Position numbers and translations under genes: made by a program. A DNA stretch of 59,904 nucleotides, counting the filler. It is 6 parts of 6 records of this genome, joined end to end, with 100 filler letters (N's around TTAATTAATTAA, not from the genome) between each part and the next. Parts side by side here need not be neighbours in the genome. Positions count along the whole stretch, not along the records: positions 38,145 to 44,962 come from DRR723986_5557; 5 more parts are not named here. The stretch is one strand, 5' to 3'. Below the pieces are notes generated by a model. It was not told the origin of the DNA and did no database searches. It was given only the letters and a program-made list of their open reading frames with translations. Position 1 is the stretch's first letter; every line of letters begins with the position of its first letter. Positions 9,554 to 53,938 of the stretch are shown here, in pieces.

Positions 9554-12010
<2,457 letters not shown>

Positions 12011-14125: not shown

Positions 14126-14225
14126 NNNNNNNNNNNNNNNNNNNNNNNNNNNNNNNNNNNNNNNNNNNNTTAATTAATTAANNNNNNNNNNNNNNNNNNN
14201 NNNNNNNNNNNNNNNNNNNNNNNNN
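14126..14225. other. artificial contig join (N run + TTAATTAATTAA)
   Basis: 100-bp spacer with a six-frame stop linker. Confidence 0.98.
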
Positions 14226-21707: not shown

Positions 21708-21807
21708 NNNNNNNNNNNNNNNNNNNNNNNNNNNNNNNNNNNNNNNNNNNNTTAATTAATTAANNNNNNNNNNNNNNNNNNNNNNNNNNNNNNNNNNNNN
21801 NNNNNNN
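21708..21807. other. artificial contig join
   Basis: N run + TTAATTAATTAA. Confidence 0.98.
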
Positions 21808-38044: not shown

Positions 38045-38144
38045 NNNNNNNNNNNNNNNNNNNNNNNNNNNNNNNNNNNNNNNNNNNNTTAATTAATTAA
38101 NNNNNNNNNNNNNNNNNNNNNNNNNNNNNNNNNNNNNNNNNNNN
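38045..38144. other. artificial contig join
   Basis: N run + TTAATTAATTAA. Confidence 0.98.
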
Positions 38145-38149
38145 GCGGT

Positions 38150-38260
38150 ATAAGGCCACATTATGTAACAGCGAGTCGCAGGAAGCGGGATACAAAAGAT
38201 TATCACTTAACAGATTGAATGTTTTTGCGGCGGCCGCAGTGCCGAGGTGGCCCGCAAGGC
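38150..38260 (+). repeat. left terminal inverted repeat (25 bp perfect, ~110 bp imperfect)
   Basis: ATAAGGCCACATTATGTAACAGCGA (38150-38174) is the exact reverse complement of 44938-44962; similarity continues (CGGGATACAA, GCGGCGGCC, TGGCCCG). Confidence 0.9.
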
Positions 38261-38309
38261 AGGGGGCATGGCCGTGCCTGGAGCGGCCGGCGAGGCGCTG
38301 TGTAGATTA

Positions 38310-38425
38310 AGAGACTTGGGGTTTGGGGTTGAGTGACTGCGTGAGAGCGGAGAAAGACTTATCTATTATTATTTAAACTATTAACAGACTGACCCGGAAT
38401 CGTTAACGTCAGAGACTTGGGGTTT
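38310..38425 (+). repeat. 15-bp direct repeat pair AGAGACTTGGGGTTT
   Basis: Copies at 38310-38324 and 38411-38425. Confidence 0.7.
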
Positions 38426-38430
38426 AGTGT

Positions 38431-38623
38431 TTTACAATCCTTGTTGGGGCGGATTTAAGGCTTGAAATGCGAGCGTTGTTCAGACAGCAAAGGCATCATT
38501 AGACGTTGTTTCAATCCTTGTTGTAGCGGATGATGGAGCATTACACATAAGCTCACGGTGATGCAGTAGGACTCATTCGAGCATTTGTTTCAATCCATGT
38601 CTGGGCGGATATTTAAGCGCTTA
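38431..38623 (-). CRISPR. degenerate CRISPR-like mini-array, 3 repeats / 2 spacers, no cas genes
   Basis: Minus-strand 37-mers TAAGCGCTTAAATATCCGCCCAGACATGGATTGAAAC, GTAATGCTCCATCATCCGCTACAACAAGGATTGAAAC and TTTCAAGCCTTAAATCCGCCCCAACAAGGATTGTAAA; periods 79 and 77 bp; unique spacers of 42 and 40 nt; ATCC/GGAT stem; ATTGAAAC 3' end in two copies. Confidence 0.65.
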
Positions 38624-38960
38624 GTCCGTACGTCTTTTTTGTCTGTGCATCCCGAATCACCAAGTCGAGTAGATAGTTAACAACCTTTCTGGATTCACTC
38701 GACAGTTGCTGGATTTCCTCAAACTTCTTAAGAAGCTCCGGATCTTTGATCGTCGTTTCCTCCACGTCGTCGTTCATCAGGTAATCGATTGTCGTCCCAA
38801 GTGCGTCGGCGACTTTTTTAATGGATTGTGCCGAGGGCTGGGATGTGTCCTGCTCGTAGCGGGAAATATTCTTTTGATACAGGCCGGAAGCTTCTGCCAG
38901 CTCAAGTTGTGACATTCCTTTCTGCCGCCGCAACATCCTGATTTTTTCTCCTAACTGCAT
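38613..38960 (-). CDS. XRE family HTH transcriptional regulator
   Basis: LGEKIRMLRRQKGMSQLELAEASGLYQKNISRYEQDTSQPS...VADALGTTIDYL. Confidence 0.9.
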   Translation of the reverse strand: MQLGEKIRMLRRQKGMSQLELAEASGLYQKNISRYEQDTSQPSAQSIKKVADALGTTIDYLMNDDVEETTIKDPELLKKFEEIQQLSSESRKVVNYLLDLVIRDAQTKKTYGLSA

Positions 38961-39041
38961 ATATCTGCCTTCACGATTACTGTTTTGTCTCAATAAGTGG
39001 TAATAAAGGCACTTTTTGACTGAGTATCAAGAATAAATAGT

Positions 39042-39080
39042 CGTCTAGGGTTTGCATGCTTTAGACGGTTGTGGTATATT
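39042..39080 (+). promoter_or_regulatory. sigma70-type promoter of the symE-primase operon with a flanking inverted repeat (putative XRE operator)
   Basis: TTGCAT (39052) and TATATT (39075) separated by 17 bp, with TG in the extended -10 position; CGTCTA (39042) / TAGACG (39062) arms bracket the -35. Confidence 0.6.
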
Positions 39081-39159
39081 GAGCGCAAATGTGTCTAGCG
39101 AAAAAGTTTTCCACACCCAGGGAAACAGGTCTGAAATCACATCAAAACCACGAGGAATT

Positions 39160-39444
39160 ATGCCAAACGATCAAATCCGTACGCGCAAACTGCAGCCCAA
39201 GTACTGCCGGCGTCTTGGCGGCGATAGCGTTGTTCCGAGTCTGCACCTTGCGGGCGTATGGCTGGAGAAGCGCGGCTTCCAGGTCGGCGATATCGTTGAG
39301 ATCATCGAGCGCGACGGTTTACTGATCATCCAGTCCTTGCGTGATGAGTCTGCCGAACTGCGTGCGGCGCGGCAGGAACTGCGTGATATTAAACAAGGCA
39401 TCAAGGCATTGTCTGCAAATGGACAGGAGGAGCTCAATGTCTGA
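39160..39444 (+). CDS. SymE-family (AbrB-fold) toxin-like protein
   Basis: VPSLHLAGVWLEKRGFQVGDIVEIIERDGLLII; GAGGA RBS. Confidence 0.8.
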   Translation: MPNDQIRTRKLQPKYCRRLGGDSVVPSLHLAGVWLEKRGFQVGDIVEIIERDGLLIIQSLRDESAELRAARQELRDIKQGIKALSANGQEELNV

Positions 39445-39670
39445 ACCTTGTGTTTTCTCCGGTCACATGAACGCTGTGAGTATTGACTATGATGACGGCC
39501 ACGGTGAGCTGGTTCCGCAGCTGTCGATGTACGGTGCGGAACTGGCGGATGCCGGTTTTCCGATCGGCGAGGAGATTGCGATCATTATCGAAGAGCGGAT
39601 GTTAATCATTGTTCCGCGTTCGCGCGTTGGTGAACGGGCGGCGGCGGTCTCTACGGCGCAGGTGGTGTGA
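39437..39670 (+). CDS. second SymE-like protein
   Basis: VPQLSMYGAELADAGFPIGEEIAIIIEERMLII aligns by eye with the upstream SymE core; GGAGGAG RBS. Confidence 0.6.
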   Translation: MSEPCVFSGHMNAVSIDYDDGHGELVPQLSMYGAELADAGFPIGEEIAIIIEERMLIIVPRSRVGERAAAVSTAQVV

Positions 39671-42304
39671 ATGTCAATCCGCGAATTAAAGGCGCGCGCC
39701 GATATTCTGGATGTGGCCGCGCGCCTGGGTATCGATGTAGACACGCGGACGCAAAAAGCTTTGTGTCCCTTCCATTCCGACAGCAGTCCAAGTTTGCAGT
39801 TCAGCCGTGAACGTCAGATCGCGACCTGTTTTAGCTCGCGTTGTGATGCGGGCACGATGGATGTGGTGGACCTGGTGGAGCGTCACAAGGGTGTTAACAC
39901 AGCGGATGCGGCCAAGTGGCTGGAAGGAGAACTGGGATTAACAGCACCGGTGACAAGCGCCATAACACCAGTAGTACCAAGCCTCAAGGCGAACGAGTCA
40001 CGGGCACTTGTCCTGGCAAAAGTCTGGAAGATGTTCCGATCGGGTATCTACAAAAGCGTGAAGGCGCGCGACTATGTGGCACAGCGTTGTTTAAGTGCCG
40101 ACGCACTTGAGATCGGTTATAACTCCGGCAGTTGGCATCAGGGCCGTTCGGCGGAACTACTGGACGCCGCAGTGGAGTGCGGCCTGTTAACACGGCGTTC
40201 GGGCAGCTATCAGGCGTTCGGCAAGGGTTCTCTGGTCTTTGCACTTAAACATCAGGACGGCACGCCGGGTGGTCTGTACTTCCGTCATGCGGGTCAGAAA
40301 GACGATCCGCATCTTTATCTGAAAAACCGCTCCGGCCTGTATCCGCAGTATCCGGACGCGGGCAGCAAACGCCTTTTACTCACTGAAAGTGTGGTTGATG
40401 CGGCAACGCTGTTAATGCATCCGGCGATCACGCGGCAGTATGCAGTCCTGGCCTTGTACGGCACGAATGGATTTACAGCGGAACATGCCGAGGCCATTAA
40501 AGAGCTGAAGCAGCTCGAAGAAGTTATCCTGGCGATGGACGGTGACGCCAGCGGCCGTGCGGCGATTGAAAAGGTCGGTCGTCAGTTGCATGACCTTCAG
40601 CCGGATATTACGATCAGCGCAGTAAACATGCCGGACGGTGAGGATGTTAACAGCTTTGCCGTGGGGCAGGGGATGGACGCCTTAGAGCTGTTATTGCAAG
40701 ATCGGCGCAGTCTGTTTACATCGGAGAACAGCGGGTTAACAGCCGGTAAGACTTTATTGGAAGTCCCCACTGAACAAGTAGCAGATCCTCCGACTGAAGA
40801 TAAAAGTGTGCTCGATGCCAGTGATCCGGGACGGATTGTTTATCGCAGCGGCGCGGCGGAGTACACGGTGCTTGGCGGTGTTCCGGATGATGCCTCGACA
40901 CTTAAAGTCACGCTTGCAATCGAGCATCCGGCCTCGTATCGCAAGAGTCGTCAGCGCGTGGATCTGTTCGAGGATCGTCAGATTAAACGTGCGGCGAAGG
41001 ACGCCGGTCTGCGTCTGGACCTTGCGGTGCGGAGCATTGAGGAGGACCTGCACCAGCTGGCGGACATACTTGATACCCGCCGCCGGAGCCGCCGCACGGG
41101 CGATGCGCGCGAACGAGTGGCCGTGCCTTCCGGCGCACGTGGTGCCTGTCTTGACTTCCTGCAGGCGCCGGATCTGTCTGGCAGGTTAAACAGCCTTATC
41201 GGTTCCTCGGGTGTTGTCGGAGAAGAAATCCCGCGTCTGTTCCTGTTTATGATCGCGCTGAGTTACAAAATGCCGGAGCCGCTTCACGCCTTGCTTCAGG
41301 GCACGAGCGGTTCGGGTAAAACGCACCTGTTAACGGGCGTGTCAAATCTGATGCCTGCCGAAGACGTGCTCCTGTTAACCCGTGTGACGGAACACAGTCT
41401 GTACAACCACGACGAGAACTTTTTGCGTCACCGGCTGCTGTGTCTTGAAGACCTCGACGGTTTAAAGGAAGAAGCGCTCTACGCCCTGCGCGAGTTGCAG
41501 TCGCGCGGCTCGCTGACAAGTTCAACGAGCGTGCGCGGCACTGACGGCAAGATCCGCGCGGCGATGCGCACGGTGCGCGGCCCGATCGCGAGTCTGGCGG
41601 CAACGACGCATGGCGAGTTGTACGAAGACAATATGAGCCGCTGTTTTTTGGTTGCCGTTGACGAGTCGGAAGAACAAACGCGGCGCGTACTGGAGTATCA
41701 GAATAACCGTGCCGGTGGTCTGATCGATCTTGAAGCCGTTAAACGCACACGCGAGTTCATCCAGAACTGCGTGCGTCTGCTTGAGCCCGTCCAGGTTGTT
41801 AACCCCTATGCCGGGCGTGTGGTCCTGCCGCCGGAAGCGCAGGCCCTGCGCCGCTTAAACGACTTGTATCAGCGTCTGATTGCGCAGGTTGTGATGCTTC
41901 ATCAATATCAGCGCGCGCGTGACGCGCGTGGCGCATTTATCGCCACACCGGCGGATCTGCGTCTGGCCTGCGAGCTCATGTTCGAAAGTGTGGTGATGAA
42001 AATAGATGATTTACCTGTTGACCTGCGCCGGTTTTATGAGCAACTTCAAAGGTGGCTTGAAACGCGTGGTGATAGCGGCCAGACCTTTGGTCGCCGTGAA
42101 ATGCGTGAGGACTTGCGCATCAGCCGCAGCGGTCAACACCGCATGTTAACTGGGCTCGTGGCCTTTGAACGCCTTGAGATTACTGCCGGTGCCTCTCGCC
42201 GAGCCAACCGCTACCGGTTAAGTGATCCGGACTACTACGCGGCCTCACGCAAGCGTGTATATGCCGATCTCCGCAGGCAGATTGATAATCTCGGTAGCGA
42301 ATAA
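39671..42304 (+). CDS. CHC2 zinc finger-Toprim primase fused to a P-loop NTPase (primase/helicase)
   Basis: CPFHSDSSPS...CFSSRC; Toprim TESVVDAATL, MDGDASG, EDVN; Walker A QGTSGSGKT and Walker B LCLED. Confidence 0.88.
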   Translation: MSIRELKARADILDVAARLGIDVDTRTQKALCPFHSDSSPSLQFSRERQIATCFSSRCDAGTMDVVDLVERHKGVNTADAAKWLEGELGLTAPVTSAITPVVPSLKANESRALVLAKVWKMFRSGIYKSVKARDYVAQRCLSADALEIGYNSGSWHQGRSAELLDAAVECGLLTRRSGSYQAFGKGSLVFALKHQDGTPGGLYFRHAGQKDDPHLYLKNRSGLYPQYPDAGSKRLLLTESVVDAATLLMHPAITRQYAVLALYGTNGFTAEHAEAIKELKQLEEVILAMDGDASGRAAIEKVGRQLHDLQPDITISAVNMPDGEDVNSFAVGQGMDALELLLQDRRSLFTSENSGLTAGKTLLEVPTEQVADPPTEDKSVLDASDPGRIVYRSGAAEYTVLGGVPDDASTLKVTLAIEHPASYRKSRQRVDLFEDRQIKRAAKDAGLRLDLAVRSIEEDLHQLADILDTRRRSRRTGDARERVAVPSGARGACLDFLQAPDLSGRLNSLIGSSGVVGEEIPRLFLFMIALSYKMPEPLHALLQGTSGSGKTHLLTGVSNLMPAEDVLLLTRVTEHSLYNHDENFLRHRLLCLEDLDGLKEEALYALRELQSRGSLTSSTSVRGTDGKIRAAMRTVRGPIASLAATTHGELYEDNMSRCFLVAVDESEEQTRRVLEYQNNRAGGLIDLEAVKRTREFIQNCVRLLEPVQVVNPYAGRVVLPPEAQALRRLNDLYQRLIAQVVMLHQYQRARDARGAFIATPADLRLACELMFESVVMKIDDLPVDLRRFYEQLQRWLETRGDSGQTFGRREMREDLRISRSGQHRMLTGLVAFERLEITAGASRRANRYRLSDPDYYAASRKRVYADLRRQIDNLGSE

Positions 42305-42308
42305 AACA

Positions 42309-42471
42309 AACTGTTCCAGGGGTCTGGAACAGTTAACGCCATAAGAATCAAGCACTTACATTATCACCAAAGTTTAAGAAGTGAAAAGTTGGAACAGATC
42401 GGGCGGTTTTGTGCACCCGTTTGGAACAGGTAAGTCTATGATTTATATGCGTTTAAGCCCAACTGTTCCAG
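42309..42471. repeat. iteron-like TGGAACAG repeats, putative replication origin
   Basis: AACTGTTCCAG-GGGT-CTGGAACAGTT palindrome (42309-42334); further copies near 42390, 42422 and inverted at 42463; AT-rich spacers. Confidence 0.65.
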
Positions 42472-42511
42472 AATTTTTAAAAGTGTGTAGACGGTGAGCT
42501 TTTTTGTGGCC

Positions 42512-43372
42512 ATGAACATCGAACACCACTTGCGCGGCTTTAACGCCGATTTGCACTGGCGCGGCCTGAATCCTGTGACCTGCTCGCAGCACGTCGCGTC
42601 CGCACGTGAGCTCCTCGAATGGCTTGCCGCGCACGCAGTACATCGTCTTGAAGATGTTAATCGTTCCATTCTTGATGCGCACGTCGCGTGGCTGTGGCAA
42701 CGTCCGAACCGTCGTCTTGGTGGTCATCTGTCTGTCAGCACGATCCGCGGTCATGTACTGGGCCTGCGGTCGTTCTTTGCGTGGCTGGAGCGCTCCGGCG
42801 TGTTAACAGAAAACCCAGCCTCGACGCTTGCCCTGCCAACGATGCCGCCCGTCCCTGCGCGTGTTGCATTAACAGCCGATGAGATCGCGCGTCTGCGCGC
42901 CAGGTGCCAAAACCCGACCGATCGCGCGCTTCTTGCGGTGTTCTACGGCTGTGGTCTGCGGCGCGCCGAAGGCGCGGCGCTCGACACTGCGGATGTAGAT
43001 GTTGAGCGCGGTCTGCTTCATGTACGGCGCGGCAAGGGCGGCAAGCCGCGCTCGGTGCCGATGAGCGCCGGCGTTCAGCGTGACCTGGCGGATCTGTTGT
43101 GGCGCCATCGTCCGGACGGTCAGACGGCTCTGTTTGTGAACCTGCGCGGTGATCGTCTGAGCGCCAATCGCATGTACGCGCTTGTTAAACAACTGGCACG
43201 GCGTGCGCGAATAACGAGCGTTGTCACGCTCCACGGCCTGCGGCATGCCGTGGCGACACACCTGCTTCAGCGCGGTTTAACACTTGAACAGGTGCGTGAC
43301 TTTTTAGGTCACAGTTCGATCGAGGCCACGCGTATCTATACGCACGGTCTGCCTGCGGAGCCGCAGGAATGA
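42512..43372 (+). CDS. tyrosine recombinase (XerC/D-like) with intact catalytic residues
   Basis: YGCGLRRAE (R), RGKGGK (K), HGLRH (HxxR), LGHSS (H) and TRIYTH (Y). Confidence 0.9.
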   Translation: MNIEHHLRGFNADLHWRGLNPVTCSQHVASARELLEWLAAHAVHRLEDVNRSILDAHVAWLWQRPNRRLGGHLSVSTIRGHVLGLRSFFAWLERSGVLTENPASTLALPTMPPVPARVALTADEIARLRARCQNPTDRALLAVFYGCGLRRAEGAALDTADVDVERGLLHVRRGKGGKPRSVPMSAGVQRDLADLLWRHRPDGQTALFVNLRGDRLSANRMYALVKQLARRARITSVVTLHGLRHAVATHLLQRGLTLEQVRDFLGHSSIEATRIYTHGLPAEPQE

Positions 43373-44220
43373 CACTGGATGAATGGTTAAGCGCTCGCTA
43401 TGCGGCCTCGACGGCCAAAGCCTACCGGCGTGTCATCGACATGTGGTTGAGTCGTATCGGTCGGAAACACGCGCCGGACGCGGTCTACAACGACGTGGCC
43501 GCGTGGATCGGCAGTCTGCGTGAGCAGACGCCCAATCCGGCGAGTCTGCGTGTGTATGTACACGGCCTGCGTGCCTATTACACCTGGCTTGTTGAAATGG
43601 GACATCGCAGGGATGACCCGACGCGTTCGCTCATTGCCGGACGTGTGAGTCGCCACGTGCACCTGCCAGACCTGTTAACAGCGGCGGAAGTGCGGCGCCT
43701 GCGCGCGCATGCCGCAGAACTGGAGCCTCGTCTGCGCGTTACACTTGAGCTGTTGACATACAGCGCATTAACAAGCCGCGAGATCAGTCTGCTGACAACT
43801 GAAAACGTTAACCTGGAAGCCGGCACAATCGATGTTCCGGCGACGGGCCGCACCGAAGCGCGGCAACTGAAACTCACCGGCGTACAGCACAATCACCTGG
43901 TAAACTACCTTGAAGAAGCCAGGCCTGCTCTGCTCTCAGCGCCAACTGAAAAACTCTTGTTAACATCCCGCGGCACGCCGCTCACAGTTGACGGCATCCA
44001 TCACCAGGTCACACGTCTGCGCTCGATCTTGCCGGGAAGAAAATTAACGCCAACCCTGATCCGCCAGTCGGTGATTGCGATGATGTTAAGTAGCGGCACC
44101 GAGTTACGTTCCGTTCAGCTCTTTGCCGGACACCGCTATCCCAGCTCCACCGAACGCTACCGATTTACGAACCTGGCCGAACTACGCGCGGCAGTGACGC
44201 AGTTCCATCCGATGGAATAG
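43369..44220 (+). CDS. second tyrosine recombinase with degenerate active-site motifs
   Basis: SAM-like N-terminus; YSALTSRE replaces GLR; PTLIRQS replaces HxxRH; FAGH...STERY retained. Confidence 0.8.
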   Translation: MTLDEWLSARYAASTAKAYRRVIDMWLSRIGRKHAPDAVYNDVAAWIGSLREQTPNPASLRVYVHGLRAYYTWLVEMGHRRDDPTRSLIAGRVSRHVHLPDLLTAAEVRRLRAHAAELEPRLRVTLELLTYSALTSREISLLTTENVNLEAGTIDVPATGRTEARQLKLTGVQHNHLVNYLEEARPALLSAPTEKLLLTSRGTPLTVDGIHHQVTRLRSILPGRKLTPTLIRQSVIAMMLSSGTELRSVQLFAGHRYPSSTERYRFTNLAELRAAVTQFHPME

Positions 44221-44306
44221 GCGCAGATACACTCGGCGCGGTTCAGGGTCGTTGTATCTGTCATTGATTAGAAGTTCTTACGAACAAATCCAACGTGGTG
44301 TTTATC

Positions 44307-44513
44307 ATGAGAAAAGTACTATTGCATCGCGCCGAAGAAGGTGGCTGGGTTGTCACCTGTCCCTCGCTTCCCGGCTGTGTGAGCGAAGGAGAAACCAAGG
44401 ACGAGGCACTGGCCAATATCCGCGAGGCGATCGACCTTTATATTGAAGATATGATCGCCGATGGCGAACCGGTTCCCGAGGACTGGGGCGAAACTCTTCT
44501 GGTAGCGGTATGA
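44307..44513 (+). CDS. hicB: HicB-family antitoxin (short form)
   Basis: EEGGWVVTCPSLPGCVSEGETKDEALANIREAI. Confidence 0.88.
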   Translation: MRKVLLHRAEEGGWVVTCPSLPGCVSEGETKDEALANIREAIDLYIEDMIADGEPVPEDWGETLLVAV

Positions 44514-44731
44514 GCCATATTCCGGTGATCAGTGGCCGTAAATGTGTCAAGGCTCTTGAGAAAATCGGCTTTGTCTTCAAGCGACAGCGTGGCAGTCACA
44601 TGATCCTGAAACGCCCAAATCCACCCTGCCGGGTATCGGTCCCGGATCACAAGGCCATGAAAACCGGAACGTTGTATACGATTATCAAAGAAGCCGGATT
44701 AACTGTTGAGCAGTTCAAAGAACTCCTGTGA
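44510..44731 (+). CDS. hicA: HicA-family mRNA interferase toxin
   Basis: KALEKIGFVFKRQRGSHMIL...VPDH...GTLYTIIKEAGL. Confidence 0.9.
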   Translation: MSHIPVISGRKCVKALEKIGFVFKRQRGSHMILKRPNPPCRVSVPDHKAMKTGTLYTIIKEAGLTVEQFKELL

Positions 44732-44854
44732 CCCTCCAGGGTTCAGTTTACGTTACATTCTGACGTGTTAACACCCAACAACAAACCTCCGAACCACAAA
44801 CCGAAAGCCTGGGCACGCCACTCATCAGGCCACTTCCGTCGTGGACCTTCCACT

Positions 44855-44962
44855 CCGTCCGGGCCATCTTCGCGCCGTGGCCGCCGCCGGGCGAAAGAGC
44901 CAAAAGTGTTAAGCCATTGTATCCCGACGCTTGCGCATCGCTGTTACATAATGTGGCCTTAT
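44855..44962 (-). repeat. right terminal inverted repeat
   Basis: TCGCTGTTACATAATGTGGCCTTAT (44938-44962) is the reverse complement of the left end. Confidence 0.9.
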
Positions 44963-45062
44963 NNNNNNNNNNNNNNNNNNNNNNNNNNNNNNNNNNNNNN
45001 NNNNNNTTAATTAATTAANNNNNNNNNNNNNNNNNNNNNNNNNNNNNNNNNNNNNNNNNNNN
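44963..45062. other. artificial contig join
   Basis: N run + TTAATTAATTAA. Confidence 0.98.
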
Positions 45063-53838: not shown

Positions 53839-53938
53839 NNNNNNNNNNNNNNNNNNNNNNNNNNNNNNNNNNNNNNNNNNNNTTAATTAATTAANNNNNN
53901 NNNNNNNNNNNNNNNNNNNNNNNNNNNNNNNNNNNNNN
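53839..53938. other. artificial contig join
   Basis: N run + TTAATTAATTAA. Confidence 0.98.

What the first reader, a model, noticed from the sequence alone, without database searches (positions are those of the whole stretch)
38431..38623. Cas-less, degenerate CRISPR-like mini-array fused to the 3' end of the XRE repressor gene
On the minus strand, three ~37-nt units share ATCCGC-N6-CA(A/T)GGATTG(A/T)AA(C/A) at 79/77-bp spacing. The unique spacers are AAATGCTCGAATGAGTCCTACTGCATCACCGTGAGCTTATGT and AACGTCTAATGATGCCTTTGCTGTCTGAACAACGCTCGCA. The conserved part is the hairpin plus the ATTGAAAC 8-nt handle that Cas6 leaves on type I/III crRNAs; the 5' thirds have diverged. The two repeats that precede spacers keep a perfect handle, while the terminal one is decayed. 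The first repeat overlaps the XRE stop codon, so the array would be co-transcribed with the repressor. The element has no cas gene. Inference: it borrows host Cas6/Cascade, either to target competing elements, as an RNA anti-CRISPR decoy (Racr-like), or as regulatory crRNA-like guides (CreA-like).
Basis: partly seen in the sequence, partly recalled or inferred. Interest (0 to 1): 0.85.

Follow-up and report, generated by a model that had tools for sequence, protein, structure and literature searches.

The report
CRISPR-derived mini-array on small mobile element
A 6.8-kb mobile DNA element carries, directly behind its repressor gene, three decayed copies of a common CRISPR repeat separated by two unique spacers and no cas genes; mobile elements are already known to use this trick to borrow or jam a host's CRISPR machinery.

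Summary
Three units on the minus strand (38623-38587, 38544-38508, 38467-38429) share ATCCGC-N5-CA[A/T]GGATTG, not N6 as written, at 79/77-nt spacing. None of 100 shuffles gave three matches.

The middle unit carries the exact 3' 24 nt of a widespread 37-nt CRISPR repeat class...ATCC-N6-ACAAGGATTGAAAC. That class forms long arrays in several phyla, in one case next to cas3-cas6b-cas1-cas2-cas4. It also occurs as solitary units in 50 viral contigs. Rfam CRISPR-DR7 hits the unit below threshold (26.2 bits, E 0.011).

The array lies on its own 6,818-bp contig, a mobile element encoding XRE, SymE-like proteins, a primase-helicase, two tyrosine recombinases and HicAB, with about 190-nt inverted ends. 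It occupies a slot where relatives carry variable two-gene cassettes. Unit 1 overlaps the XRE stop codon, and the contig has no cas gene.

Not shown: the host (no genome is held), expression, processing, or any spacer target.

Verdict: a real, CRISPR-derived, cas-less mini-array and a new member of a known kind (mini-arrays, Racr, Cracr arrays). Its function is inferred only.

The parts
38587..38623 (-). Unit 1 (37 nt). Its 3' 24 nt read ATCCGCCCAGACATGGATTGAAAC with a perfect ATTGAAAC handle. Its 5' third overlaps the last XRE codons and the TAA stop (38615-38613).
   Evidence: class model 13.3 bits, E 0.14
38545..38586 (-). Spacer 1, 42 nt, unique.
   Evidence: no target found
38508..38544 (-). 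Unit 2 (37 nt). Its 3' 24 nt ATCCGCTACAACAAGGATTGAAAC match every invariant position of the repeat class.
   Evidence: Rfam CRISPR-DR7 26.2 bits, E 0.011; class model 35 bits
38468..38507 (-). Spacer 2, 40 nt, unique.
   Evidence: no target found
38429..38467 (-). Unit 3, terminal (39 nt). It keeps a repeat-like 5' start (TTTCAAG...) and a 5-bp stem. Its handle is interrupted: ATTG-TA-AAAC.
   Evidence: class model 17.8 bits, E 0.0063, alignment shows the TA insertion; fold
38613..38993 (-). XRE-family HTH repressor gene (126-aa ORF; homologues align from about residue 10-14). The array follows it on the same strand with no gap.
   Evidence: Pfam HTH_3 E 1.6e-14; homologues in 10 related loci
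38145..44962 (.). Carrier: a 6,818-bp contig that is a mobile element. Gene order: XRE(-), two SymE-like ORFs, primase-helicase 39671-42304, tyrosine recombinases 42494-43372 and 43369-44220, and HicB/HicA (HicA 44510-44731).
38150..38331 (.). Left arm of an imperfect terminal inverted repeat of about 190 nt (outer 25 nt perfect). Its partner lies at about 44770-44962.
   Evidence: score 118; shuffles 29.6 +/- 5.7, max 55
38411..38431 (+). Second copy of a 21-nt direct repeat (first copy 38310-38330). It abuts and overlaps the last bases of unit 3. Role unknown.
   Evidence: family D3, 90% identity

Best explanation
The region is a CRISPR-derived, cas-less mini-array: three decayed repeats and two spacers, carried as cargo by a 6.8-kb integrative mobile element.

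Proposed mechanism, inferred and not shown:
1. The array is transcribed as the 3' tail of the XRE repressor mRNA.
2. A host Cas6b-type endoribonuclease recognises the conserved ATCC...GGAT/ATTGAAAC module and cuts 8 nt before the end of each unit.
3. This releases two crRNA-like RNAs with an AUUGAAAC 5' tag, carrying spacer 1 and spacer 2. Their 3' tags come from the decayed 5' thirds of units 2 and 3.
4. These RNAs load into the host's type I-B (or co-resident type III) effector.

I favour an anti-defence outcome: a decoy that competes for Cas proteins, or a regulatory crRNA-like RNA (Racr/Cracr-like). I rate classical targeting of competitors lower, because the units resemble the many viral solitary units of this class, with the 3' two-thirds kept and the 5' third free.

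My odds: CRISPR-derived origin about 0.9; any present function through host Cas proteins about 0.55; specifically anti-defence about 0.35. The confidence given for this entry is for the full statement, including the anti-defence branch.
For: The three units are real and periodic.

Unit 2 matches all 19 invariant columns of a 49-sequence alignment of the class. Rfam's independently built CRISPR-DR7 model aligns to it over model positions 10-37.

In a full-model scan of all 59,904 bases on both strands, the three best hits are exactly the three units (35, 17.8 and 13.3 bits). The next best hit scores 7.5 bits.

Bona fide arrays of the class have periods of 70-78 nt. One lies next to cas3-cas6b-cas1-cas2-cas4.

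Type I-B Cas6b yields crRNAs with an AUUGAAAC tag and trimmed 3' ends (PMC3479195, passages).

Conservation is lopsided, as that mechanism predicts. Units 1 vs 2 match at 5/13 positions in the 5' third and 19/24 in the 3' part. Units 2 vs 3 match at 2/13 and 20/24 (read).

The same pattern is seen inside a 68-repeat array on G001:C35: the 22 repeats I read individually vary in the 5' 14 nt, with one loop substitution each in two and a handle ending in T in a third. Many viral solitary units show it too.

No terminator is predicted between XRE and unit 1.

In 5 relatives sampled by Pfam, the same slot holds variable two-gene cassettes, including nucleotidyltransferase, Imm40-like and JAB-toxin-like genes. 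The slot is therefore accessory cargo, not core machinery.

MGE-borne mini-arrays, solitary repeats and multiplexed 'Cracr arrays' are documented (PMC11656645 and PMC10651486, passages; bioRxiv 10.1101/2024.10.29.618823, abstract and section 7).
Against: There is no expression or processing evidence.

The host is unknown and no cas genes can be linked to the element.

No minus-strand promoter or terminator was predicted in 38145-39200.

The stems are no more stable than shuffles.

The Rfam hit is below the gathering score (26.2 vs 37), and nothing in the window reaches gathering.

The class model was built from sequences fetched with a pattern derived from unit 2, so unit 2's 35 bits are circular. 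Unit 1 alone is weak (E 0.14).

The repeats are not identical to each other, unlike described virus-borne mini-arrays.

Spacers of 40-42 nt, and one period of 79 nt, lie at or just beyond the 70-78 range seen in the arrays I read.

None of 29 related loci carries such units. The only two model hits in relatives, L018 and L031, have flanking sequence that, by my own reading, translates to a YYPFGLK(H) motif, so they are probably protein-coding.

Cas6 enzymes that need the repeat's 5' end would not process units 1 and 2.
Confidence: 0.35

Rival explanations
1. Classical cas-less mini-array. The two spacers are true guides that use the host's effector to destroy or silence competing mobile elements (superinfection exclusion), as shown for archaeal virus mini-arrays.
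For: The region has repeat-spacer-repeat architecture with near-normal spacer lengths. Perfect handles precede both spacers. It would be co-expressed with the resident-state repressor. The slot holds conflict-type cargo in relatives. The review says most viral mini-array spacers target related viruses (PMC11656645, passages).
Against: No protospacer was found in any search: the window and 29 related loci; array-bearing loci; 50,697 phage records (best E 0.3); 72,556 plasmids (best E 0.3); 254 genomes (only chance-level hits in the spacer parts); IMG/VR exact search for spacer 1. The repeats are heterogeneous, whereas described mini-arrays copy the host repeat exactly.
Confidence: 0.2
2. Inert relic. 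A fragment of a host CRISPR array was captured by the element and is decaying, with no present function.
For: The repeats differ from one another, and unit 3's handle is broken. There is no leader and no cas gene, so no acquisition is possible. No spacer targets were found. No relative keeps such an array.
Against: Decay is not uniform. The 3' 24 nt stay 19-20/24 identical while the 5' 13 nt are at 2-5/13. This is the same asymmetry seen in a 68-repeat array and in viral solitary units. Both handles that would tag a spacer are intact.
Confidence: 0.25
3. Protein-binding repeats unrelated to CRISPR: iterons for the primase-helicase, arm sites for the two recombinases, or XRE operators.
For: The units are three spaced repeats near an element end and next to a DNA-binding regulator gene. 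The element has other short repeats and long inverted ends nearby.
Against: Unit 2 matches 18 specified positions of a canonical CRISPR repeat end, which is far beyond chance in 60 kb. The motif is absent from the right end, from the XRE/primase promoter region and from the rest of the window. It is also absent from all 29 related loci, which share the core genes. In relatives the slot holds protein-coding cargo, not core sites.
Confidence: 0.07

Closest known systems
Virus-borne cas-less CRISPR mini-arrays (inter-virus competition), as summarised in PMC11656645 (passages read)
   Same: One or two spacers flanked by CRISPR repeats, carried by a mobile element without cas genes, and presumed to use host Cas proteins.
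   Different: Described mini-arrays have repeats identical to the host array and spacers that hit related viruses. Here the three repeats differ from one another, no target was found, the host is unknown, and the carrier is a 6.8-kb primase/tyrosine-recombinase element rather than a virus.
Racr RNA anti-CRISPRs / solitary repeat units (PMC10651486, passages read)
   Same: Repeat mimics on mobile elements without cas genes. In this repeat class I found 50 viral contigs with one exact unit, many keeping only the 3' two-thirds of the repeat, like the window's units.
   Different: Racrs are solitary and usually sit just downstream of their own promoter. Here three units stand at CRISPR-like spacing with spacer-like inserts, no own promoter is predicted, and the array is fused to a gene's 3' end.
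Cracr arrays / viral crRNA-like regulatory RNAs (bioRxiv 10.1101/2024.10.29.618823, abstract and section 7 read)
   Same: Degenerate repeats flanking spacer-like sequences, stacked into multi-spacer units resembling CRISPR arrays, on phages and plasmids.
   Different: Cracr membership is defined by at least 9 PAM-proximal matches to a host cas or cre promoter, which cannot be tested without the host. The 30 reported arrays are I-C, I-E or I-F; type I-B appears only among the predicted targets of the 219 candidates (Cracr = viral crRNA-like RNA) and has no arrays. This one belongs to a Cas6b/I-B-linked repeat class.
37-nt type I-B (Cas6b) CRISPR repeats giving an AUUGAAAC 5' tag (PMC3479195, passages read); Rfam CRISPR-DR7
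   Same: Same 3' module, ATCC-loop-GGATTGAAAC, the same 37-nt unit length and a similar period.
   Different: The 5' thirds are not conserved. The Rfam score is below gathering. There is no leader, no cas genes and only three units.

Membership tests
CRISPR repeat class ...ATCC-N6-ACAAGGATTGAAAC (Rfam CRISPR-DR7-like, Cas6b-linked) | 8-nt 3' handle ATTGAAAC | tested here: met
   Units 1 and 2 have a perfect handle. Unit 3 has ATTG-TA-AAAC.
CRISPR repeat class ...ATCC-N6-ACAAGGATTGAAAC (Rfam CRISPR-DR7-like, Cas6b-linked) | ATCC/GGAT stem with a 10-nt loop directly before the handle | tested here: met
   Present in all three units. It is thermodynamically weak and no better than shuffles.
CRISPR repeat class ...ATCC-N6-ACAAGGATTGAAAC (Rfam CRISPR-DR7-like, Cas6b-linked) | Score at or above Rfam's gathering threshold over the full 37-nt model | tested here: not met
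   26.2 bits against 37, covering model positions 10-37 only and unit 2 only. No hit reaches gathering anywhere in the window.
Canonical CRISPR-Cas locus | Near-identical repeats, a leader and adjacent cas genes | tested here: not met
   The 5' thirds match at 2-5 of 13 positions. XRE coding sequence stands in place of a leader. No cas family is found on the contig.
Canonical CRISPR-Cas locus | Repeat period typical of the class | tested here: inconclusive
   The window's periods are 79 and 77 nt. In the four arrays I read the period was 70-78 nt.
MGE-borne cas-less mini-array | 1-2 spacers between repeats on a mobile element lacking cas | tested here: met
MGE-borne cas-less mini-array | Repeats identical to the host's own array | not testable with these tools
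   No genome is held for the window. GyrB is only 50-56% identical to 9 tested genomes.
MGE-borne cas-less mini-array | Spacers match related mobile elements | tested here: not met
   No significant match was found. The metagenome collection could not be searched for spacers, and IMG/VR was searched only for an exact copy of spacer 1.
Racr (solitary repeat unit RNA anti-CRISPR) | Single repeat unit expressed from its own nearby promoter | tested here: not met
   Three units with spacers. No minus-strand promoter is predicted within the scan.
Racr (solitary repeat unit RNA anti-CRISPR) | Binds Cas6/Cas7 into an aberrant complex and inhibits interference | not testable with these tools
   This needs biochemistry or phage assays.
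Cracr / crRNA-like regulatory RNA array | Degenerate repeats flanking a spacer-like sequence, on an MGE and outside cas loci | tested here: met
Cracr / crRNA-like regulatory RNA array | Spacer partly complementary (at least 9 PAM-proximal bp) to a host cas or toxin promoter | not testable with these tools
   The host genome is not available.

The most novel reading that the evidence does not exclude
A non-viral, 6.8-kb primase/tyrosine-recombinase element has reduced a type I-B/III CRISPR array to its minimal working module: the Cas6b recognition stem plus the 8-nt tag. It has fused that module to the 3' end of its own repressor mRNA. As a result, the dose of crRNA-like decoy or regulatory RNAs is coupled to the element's resident state. 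This would be a multiplexed RNA anti-CRISPR for a Cas6b-type system, carried in the element family's variable cargo slot.
Probability: 0.3. Interest if true: 0.6.

Novelty: new member of a known kind. Interest (0 to 1): 0.45.

Why it matters
If the array is active, CRISPR mimicry extends beyond phages and plasmids to very small integrative elements. It would also reach a Cas6b/type I-B-linked repeat class, for which the Cracr preprint reports no multi-spacer arrays (section 7).

The lopsided conservation, with the 3' 24 nt kept and the 5' 13 nt free, also serves as a natural mutagenesis experiment. It points to the part of this repeat that matters for processing and loading.

As things stand, this is a clean but unvalidated example of a documented phenomenon.

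Tried and rejected
0 matches. Corrected to N5.
- **Whole genome of the window:** not held.
- **Contig DNA against collections:** no match at E 1e-5 against 72,556 plasmids or 50,697 phage records.
- **Primase against IMG/VR:** only a 61-residue Toprim stretch, in 6 loci.
- **Arrays behind XRE in relatives:**
  - No GGATTGAAAC-type array in the 29 loci.
  - An exact 9-mer chain scan found nothing, but it also missed the window's own array.
  - A windowed self-comparison of 10 XRE-bearing relatives found nothing above AT-rich noise.
  - The class model hit only L018 and L031, at sites whose flanking sequence translates to YYPFGLK(H) by my reading, so probably protein-coding.
- **Spacer targets:**
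  - None in the window or loci.
  - None in array-bearing loci.
  - Phages: best E 0.3. Plasmids: best E 0.3.
  - 254 genomes of G001's order: hits inside spacers had per-genome E of 0.005 or worse, which is chance level over 254 genomes.
  - Exact spacer 1 in IMG/VR: 0 matches.
  - Spacer 2 was not searched in IMG/VR.
- **Sequencing runs:** none was listed and no RNA holder was listed.
- **Host identification by GyrB:** 50-56% identity to 9 of 10 genomes tested, so no close relative. G001, the MAG with the most similar array, is therefore not the window's organism.
- **Rfam at gathering over the whole window:** 0 hits.
- **Promoter/terminator scan:** no minus-strand site.
- **Are viral solitary units of this class typically behind HTH genes?** Of 10 upstream ORFs, 0 were HTH, 0 were cas and 2 had phage Pfam hits.
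- **Earlier findings of this scan:** nothing returned.
- **Supplementary tables** of the Racr and Cracr papers were not consulted. They may list type I-B candidates similar to this one.

Full report
**Where the finding sits.** The 59,904-base window is not one molecule. It is six contigs joined by N44-TTAATTAATTAA-N44 linkers. The finding lies on the fourth contig, 38145-44962 (6,818 bp, GC 0.553). Its neighbours have GC 0.60-0.71. No whole genome is held for the window, so 'the host' cannot be inspected. GyrB from another contig of the window (9554-12010) is only 50-56% identical to the 9 genomes (of 10 tested) that gave a match. The organism therefore remains unidentified, and the low-GC contig may not belong to the same cell as the others.

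**The observation.**
- On the minus strand, three units match ATCCGC-N5-CA[AT]GGATTG[AT]AA at 38588-38610, 38509-38531 and 38432-38454. That is 3 matches against 0.02 expected, and 0 of 100 shuffles reached 3.
- The repeat finder independently reports a three-copy family with 77/79 spacing.
- The XRE ORF (38613-38993, minus strand; HTH_3 E 1.6e-14) ends with TAA at 38615-38613, inside unit 1.
- No ORF of 40 aa or more lies in 38145-38612.

**Are the units CRISPR repeats?**
- Rfam's CRISPR-DR7 model aligns to unit 2 over model positions 10-37 (26.2 bits, E 0.011). This is below its gathering score of 37, and nothing in the window reaches gathering.
- A scan of IMG/VR for ATCC-N{5,8}-ACAAGGATTGAAAC returned 56 loci:
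  - Six have two or more exact copies (34, 4, 2, 2, 2, 2).
  - Fifty have one exact copy. Of these, 40 are not covered by a stop-free frame of 150 aa or more, and 6 have a second, degenerate unit 52-76 nt away.
- A scan of one genome per species for the ATCCGC variant returned 20 single matches. Six are variant repeats inside long arrays, in MAGs labelled Methanoregulaceae, Methanolliviera, Cyclobacteriaceae, Hyphomicrobiales, Promethearchaeota and Planctomycetota.
- I read four of those arrays. They have 37-nt repeats and periods of 70-78 nt.
- The Cyclobacteriaceae array lies directly downstream of cas3-cas6b-cas1-cas2-cas4, a type I-B set.
- Type I-B Cas6b of M. maripaludis and C. thermocellum makes crRNAs with an AUUGAAAC 5' tag and trimmed 3' ends from 37-nt repeats (PMC3479195, passages).
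- I built a covariance model from 49 distinct repeats of the class and scanned the whole window with filters off. The three best hits are the three units: 35 bits (E 5e-8), 17.8 bits (E 0.006) and 13.3 bits (E 0.14). The next best hit is 7.5 bits.
- Caveat: the training sequences were fetched with a pattern derived from unit 2, so its score is partly circular. Units 1 and 3 and the Rfam hit are the independent part.
- The model alignment shows that unit 3's handle carries a 2-nt insertion (ATTG-TA-AAAC).

**Pattern of conservation.**
- Units 1 and 2 match at 5 of 13 positions in the 5' third but 19 of 24 in the 3' part. Units 2 and 3 match at 2 of 13 and 20 of 24 (read).
- The same asymmetry occurs in a 68-repeat array on G001:C35. 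In the 22 repeats I read individually, the 5' 14 nt vary between repeats. The 3' 23 nt (ATCCGATAAACAAGGATTGAAAC) are near-constant: two repeats carry one loop substitution each and a third ends its handle in T. One of those variants differs from unit 2's 3' part by a single inserted base.
- Many viral solitary units also have non-repeat-like 5' thirds.
- The 5' third of a repeat becomes the 3' tag of the preceding crRNA, and that tag is trimmed in these systems. This asymmetry is therefore what selection for processing and loading would leave. With three units this is an argument, not a proof.
- The stem is only 4-5 bp and folds no better than shuffles. 'Hairpin' should be read as a conserved sequence module, not a stable structure.

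**The carrier.**
- The contig encodes XRE (minus strand), then on the plus strand two SymE-like ORFs, an 877-aa CHC2-zinc-finger/Toprim primase-helicase, two overlapping tyrosine recombinases and a HicB/HicA pair. It has no cas family.
- Its ends are inverted repeats: 25 nt perfect, with similarity extending to about 190 nt (score 118; shuffles 29.6 +/- 5.7, max 55).
- The primase finds 29 metagenome loci. In 24 of them identity is 40-54% in the best segment, and they keep the XRE | (SymE) | primase | Int | Int order (XRE seen in 10 loci).
- Some relatives are circular contigs (L010, L020: 123- and 127-bp terminal overlaps). Some are tandem copies (L019, L024). Others are integrated and flanked by direct repeats about 6.4-7.8 kb apart (L016, L018, L026, L031). 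This is a family of small integrative elements.
- In relatives, the slot between the element end and XRE holds about two plus-strand genes in the 10 loci listed. In the 5 loci sampled by Pfam they differ from element to element: 3 of 10 ORFs had hits (nucleotidyltransferase, Imm40, JAB-like toxin).
- In the window that slot is a 468-bp non-coding stretch holding the mini-array. The array is therefore accessory cargo. None of the relatives has it.

**What it probably does.**
- *Shown:* CRISPR-derived units in array format, on a cas-less mobile element, abutting XRE on the same strand with no predicted terminator between.
- *Inferred:* read-through from XRE; cleavage by a host Cas6b 8 nt before each unit's end; release of two AUUGAAAC-tagged crRNA-like RNAs; loading into a type I-B or type III effector.
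- Whether these RNAs guide attack on competitors, soak up Cas proteins, or repress host cas genes cannot be decided.
- No target was found for either spacer in the window and related loci, array-bearing loci, phage records (best E 0.3), plasmids (best E 0.3), or 254 genomes (chance-level hits only). An exact IMG/VR search for spacer 1 also found nothing.
- I lean to anti-defence for two reasons. Solitary, 5'-degenerate units of this class far outnumber exact mini-arrays in viral contigs (50 against 4 two-copy loci). Stacked degenerate 'Cracr arrays' are now described on phages and plasmids.
- An inert relic remains a serious rival.
- Protein-binding sites are unlikely. The motif is absent from the other end, from the promoter region and from every relative, and it equals a canonical CRISPR repeat end.

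**Comparison and novelty.**
- Cas-less mini-arrays and solitary repeats on viruses are reviewed in PMC11656645 (passages).
- Racr RNAs are shown to inhibit type I-F by binding Cas6f/Cas7f (PMC10651486, passages).
- Viral crRNA-like regulators occur singly and in 30 multi-spacer arrays of types I-C, I-E and I-F (bioRxiv 10.1101/2024.10.29.618823, abstract and section 7).
- CreA/CreR-type elements I saw only in a search listing.
- The present case fits this known kind. Three features are particular to it: the carrier is a 6.8-kb primase/two-recombinase element rather than a phage or plasmid; the repeat class is Cas6b-linked; and the array is fused to the repressor gene's stop codon.
- The fusion is not unique in style. 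Seven of 40 viral solitary units of the class also abut the stop codon of a co-oriented upstream ORF.
- I could not see the supplementary tables of these papers, which may already list similar I-B candidates.

**Verdict.** This is a new member of a known kind, of moderate interest.

Noticed in passing
window 14126-14225, 21708-21807, 38045-38144, 44963-45062, 53839-53938: The window is six contigs joined by N44-TTAATTAATTAA-N44 linkers. GC ranges from 0.553 to 0.712 between contigs, so adjacency across linkers carries no biological meaning.
   Followed up: yes
window 38150-38331 and about 44770-44962: The carrier contig ends in imperfect inverted repeats of about 190 nt (outer 25 nt perfect). 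If circular, the junction would be a 25-5-25 palindrome. Relatives instead show direct terminal overlaps or flanking direct repeats. I cannot explain what the inverted ends mean: a transposon-like boundary, a palindromic att site or an assembly break.
   Followed up: partly
window 38310-38330 and 38411-38431: A 21-nt direct repeat (AGAGACTTGGGGTTT...) occurs twice, 101 nt apart. The first copy is at the inner edge of the left inverted repeat and the second abuts unit 3. A similar G/T-rich motif lies at the mirror position of the right end.
   Followed up: no
L010-L033 (metagenome loci): This is a family of about 6.4-9-kb elements sharing XRE | SymE-like | primase-helicase | two tyrosine recombinases. 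They are seen as circular contigs, tandem copies and integrated copies. A variable two-gene cargo slot lies between the element end and XRE, holding nucleotidyltransferase, Imm40-like or JAB-toxin-like genes.
   Followed up: partly
L039-L091 (IMG/VR loci): Fifty viral contigs carry a single exact unit of the same repeat class, often with a non-repeat-like 5' third. Seven of the 40 examined abut the stop codon of a co-oriented upstream ORF. Two of those upstream ORFs are a tail tube protein and an ERF recombinase.
   Followed up: partly
L009 7535-7641: A GC-rich (0.65) viral contig carries a two-unit degenerate mini-array of the same class (26.8 and 22.5 bits), 74 nt apart. It is the closest analogue found to the window's array.
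   Followed up: partly
G001:C35 6398-11462 (L103, L114): A 68-repeat array has no cas gene in the parts of its 48-kb contig that I scanned. In the 22 repeats I read, the 5' 14 nt vary and the 3' 23 nt are near-constant. The same contig holds a 312-aa Toprim fragment 45% identical to the element's primase. The genome has RAMP genes and Cas1 on other contigs.
   Followed up: partly
L012 3068-3098/4023-4053; L013 4632-4668/5593-5629: In two relatives, inverted repeats of 31-37 nt flank the first tyrosine recombinase gene. This may mark an invertible segment.
   Followed up: no
window 39052-39670: Two tandem SymE-like (AbrB-fold) ORFs lie between the divergent promoter region and the primase gene, and a HicB/HicA pair lies at the right end. 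The small element thus carries several toxin-antitoxin-type genes.
   Followed up: no
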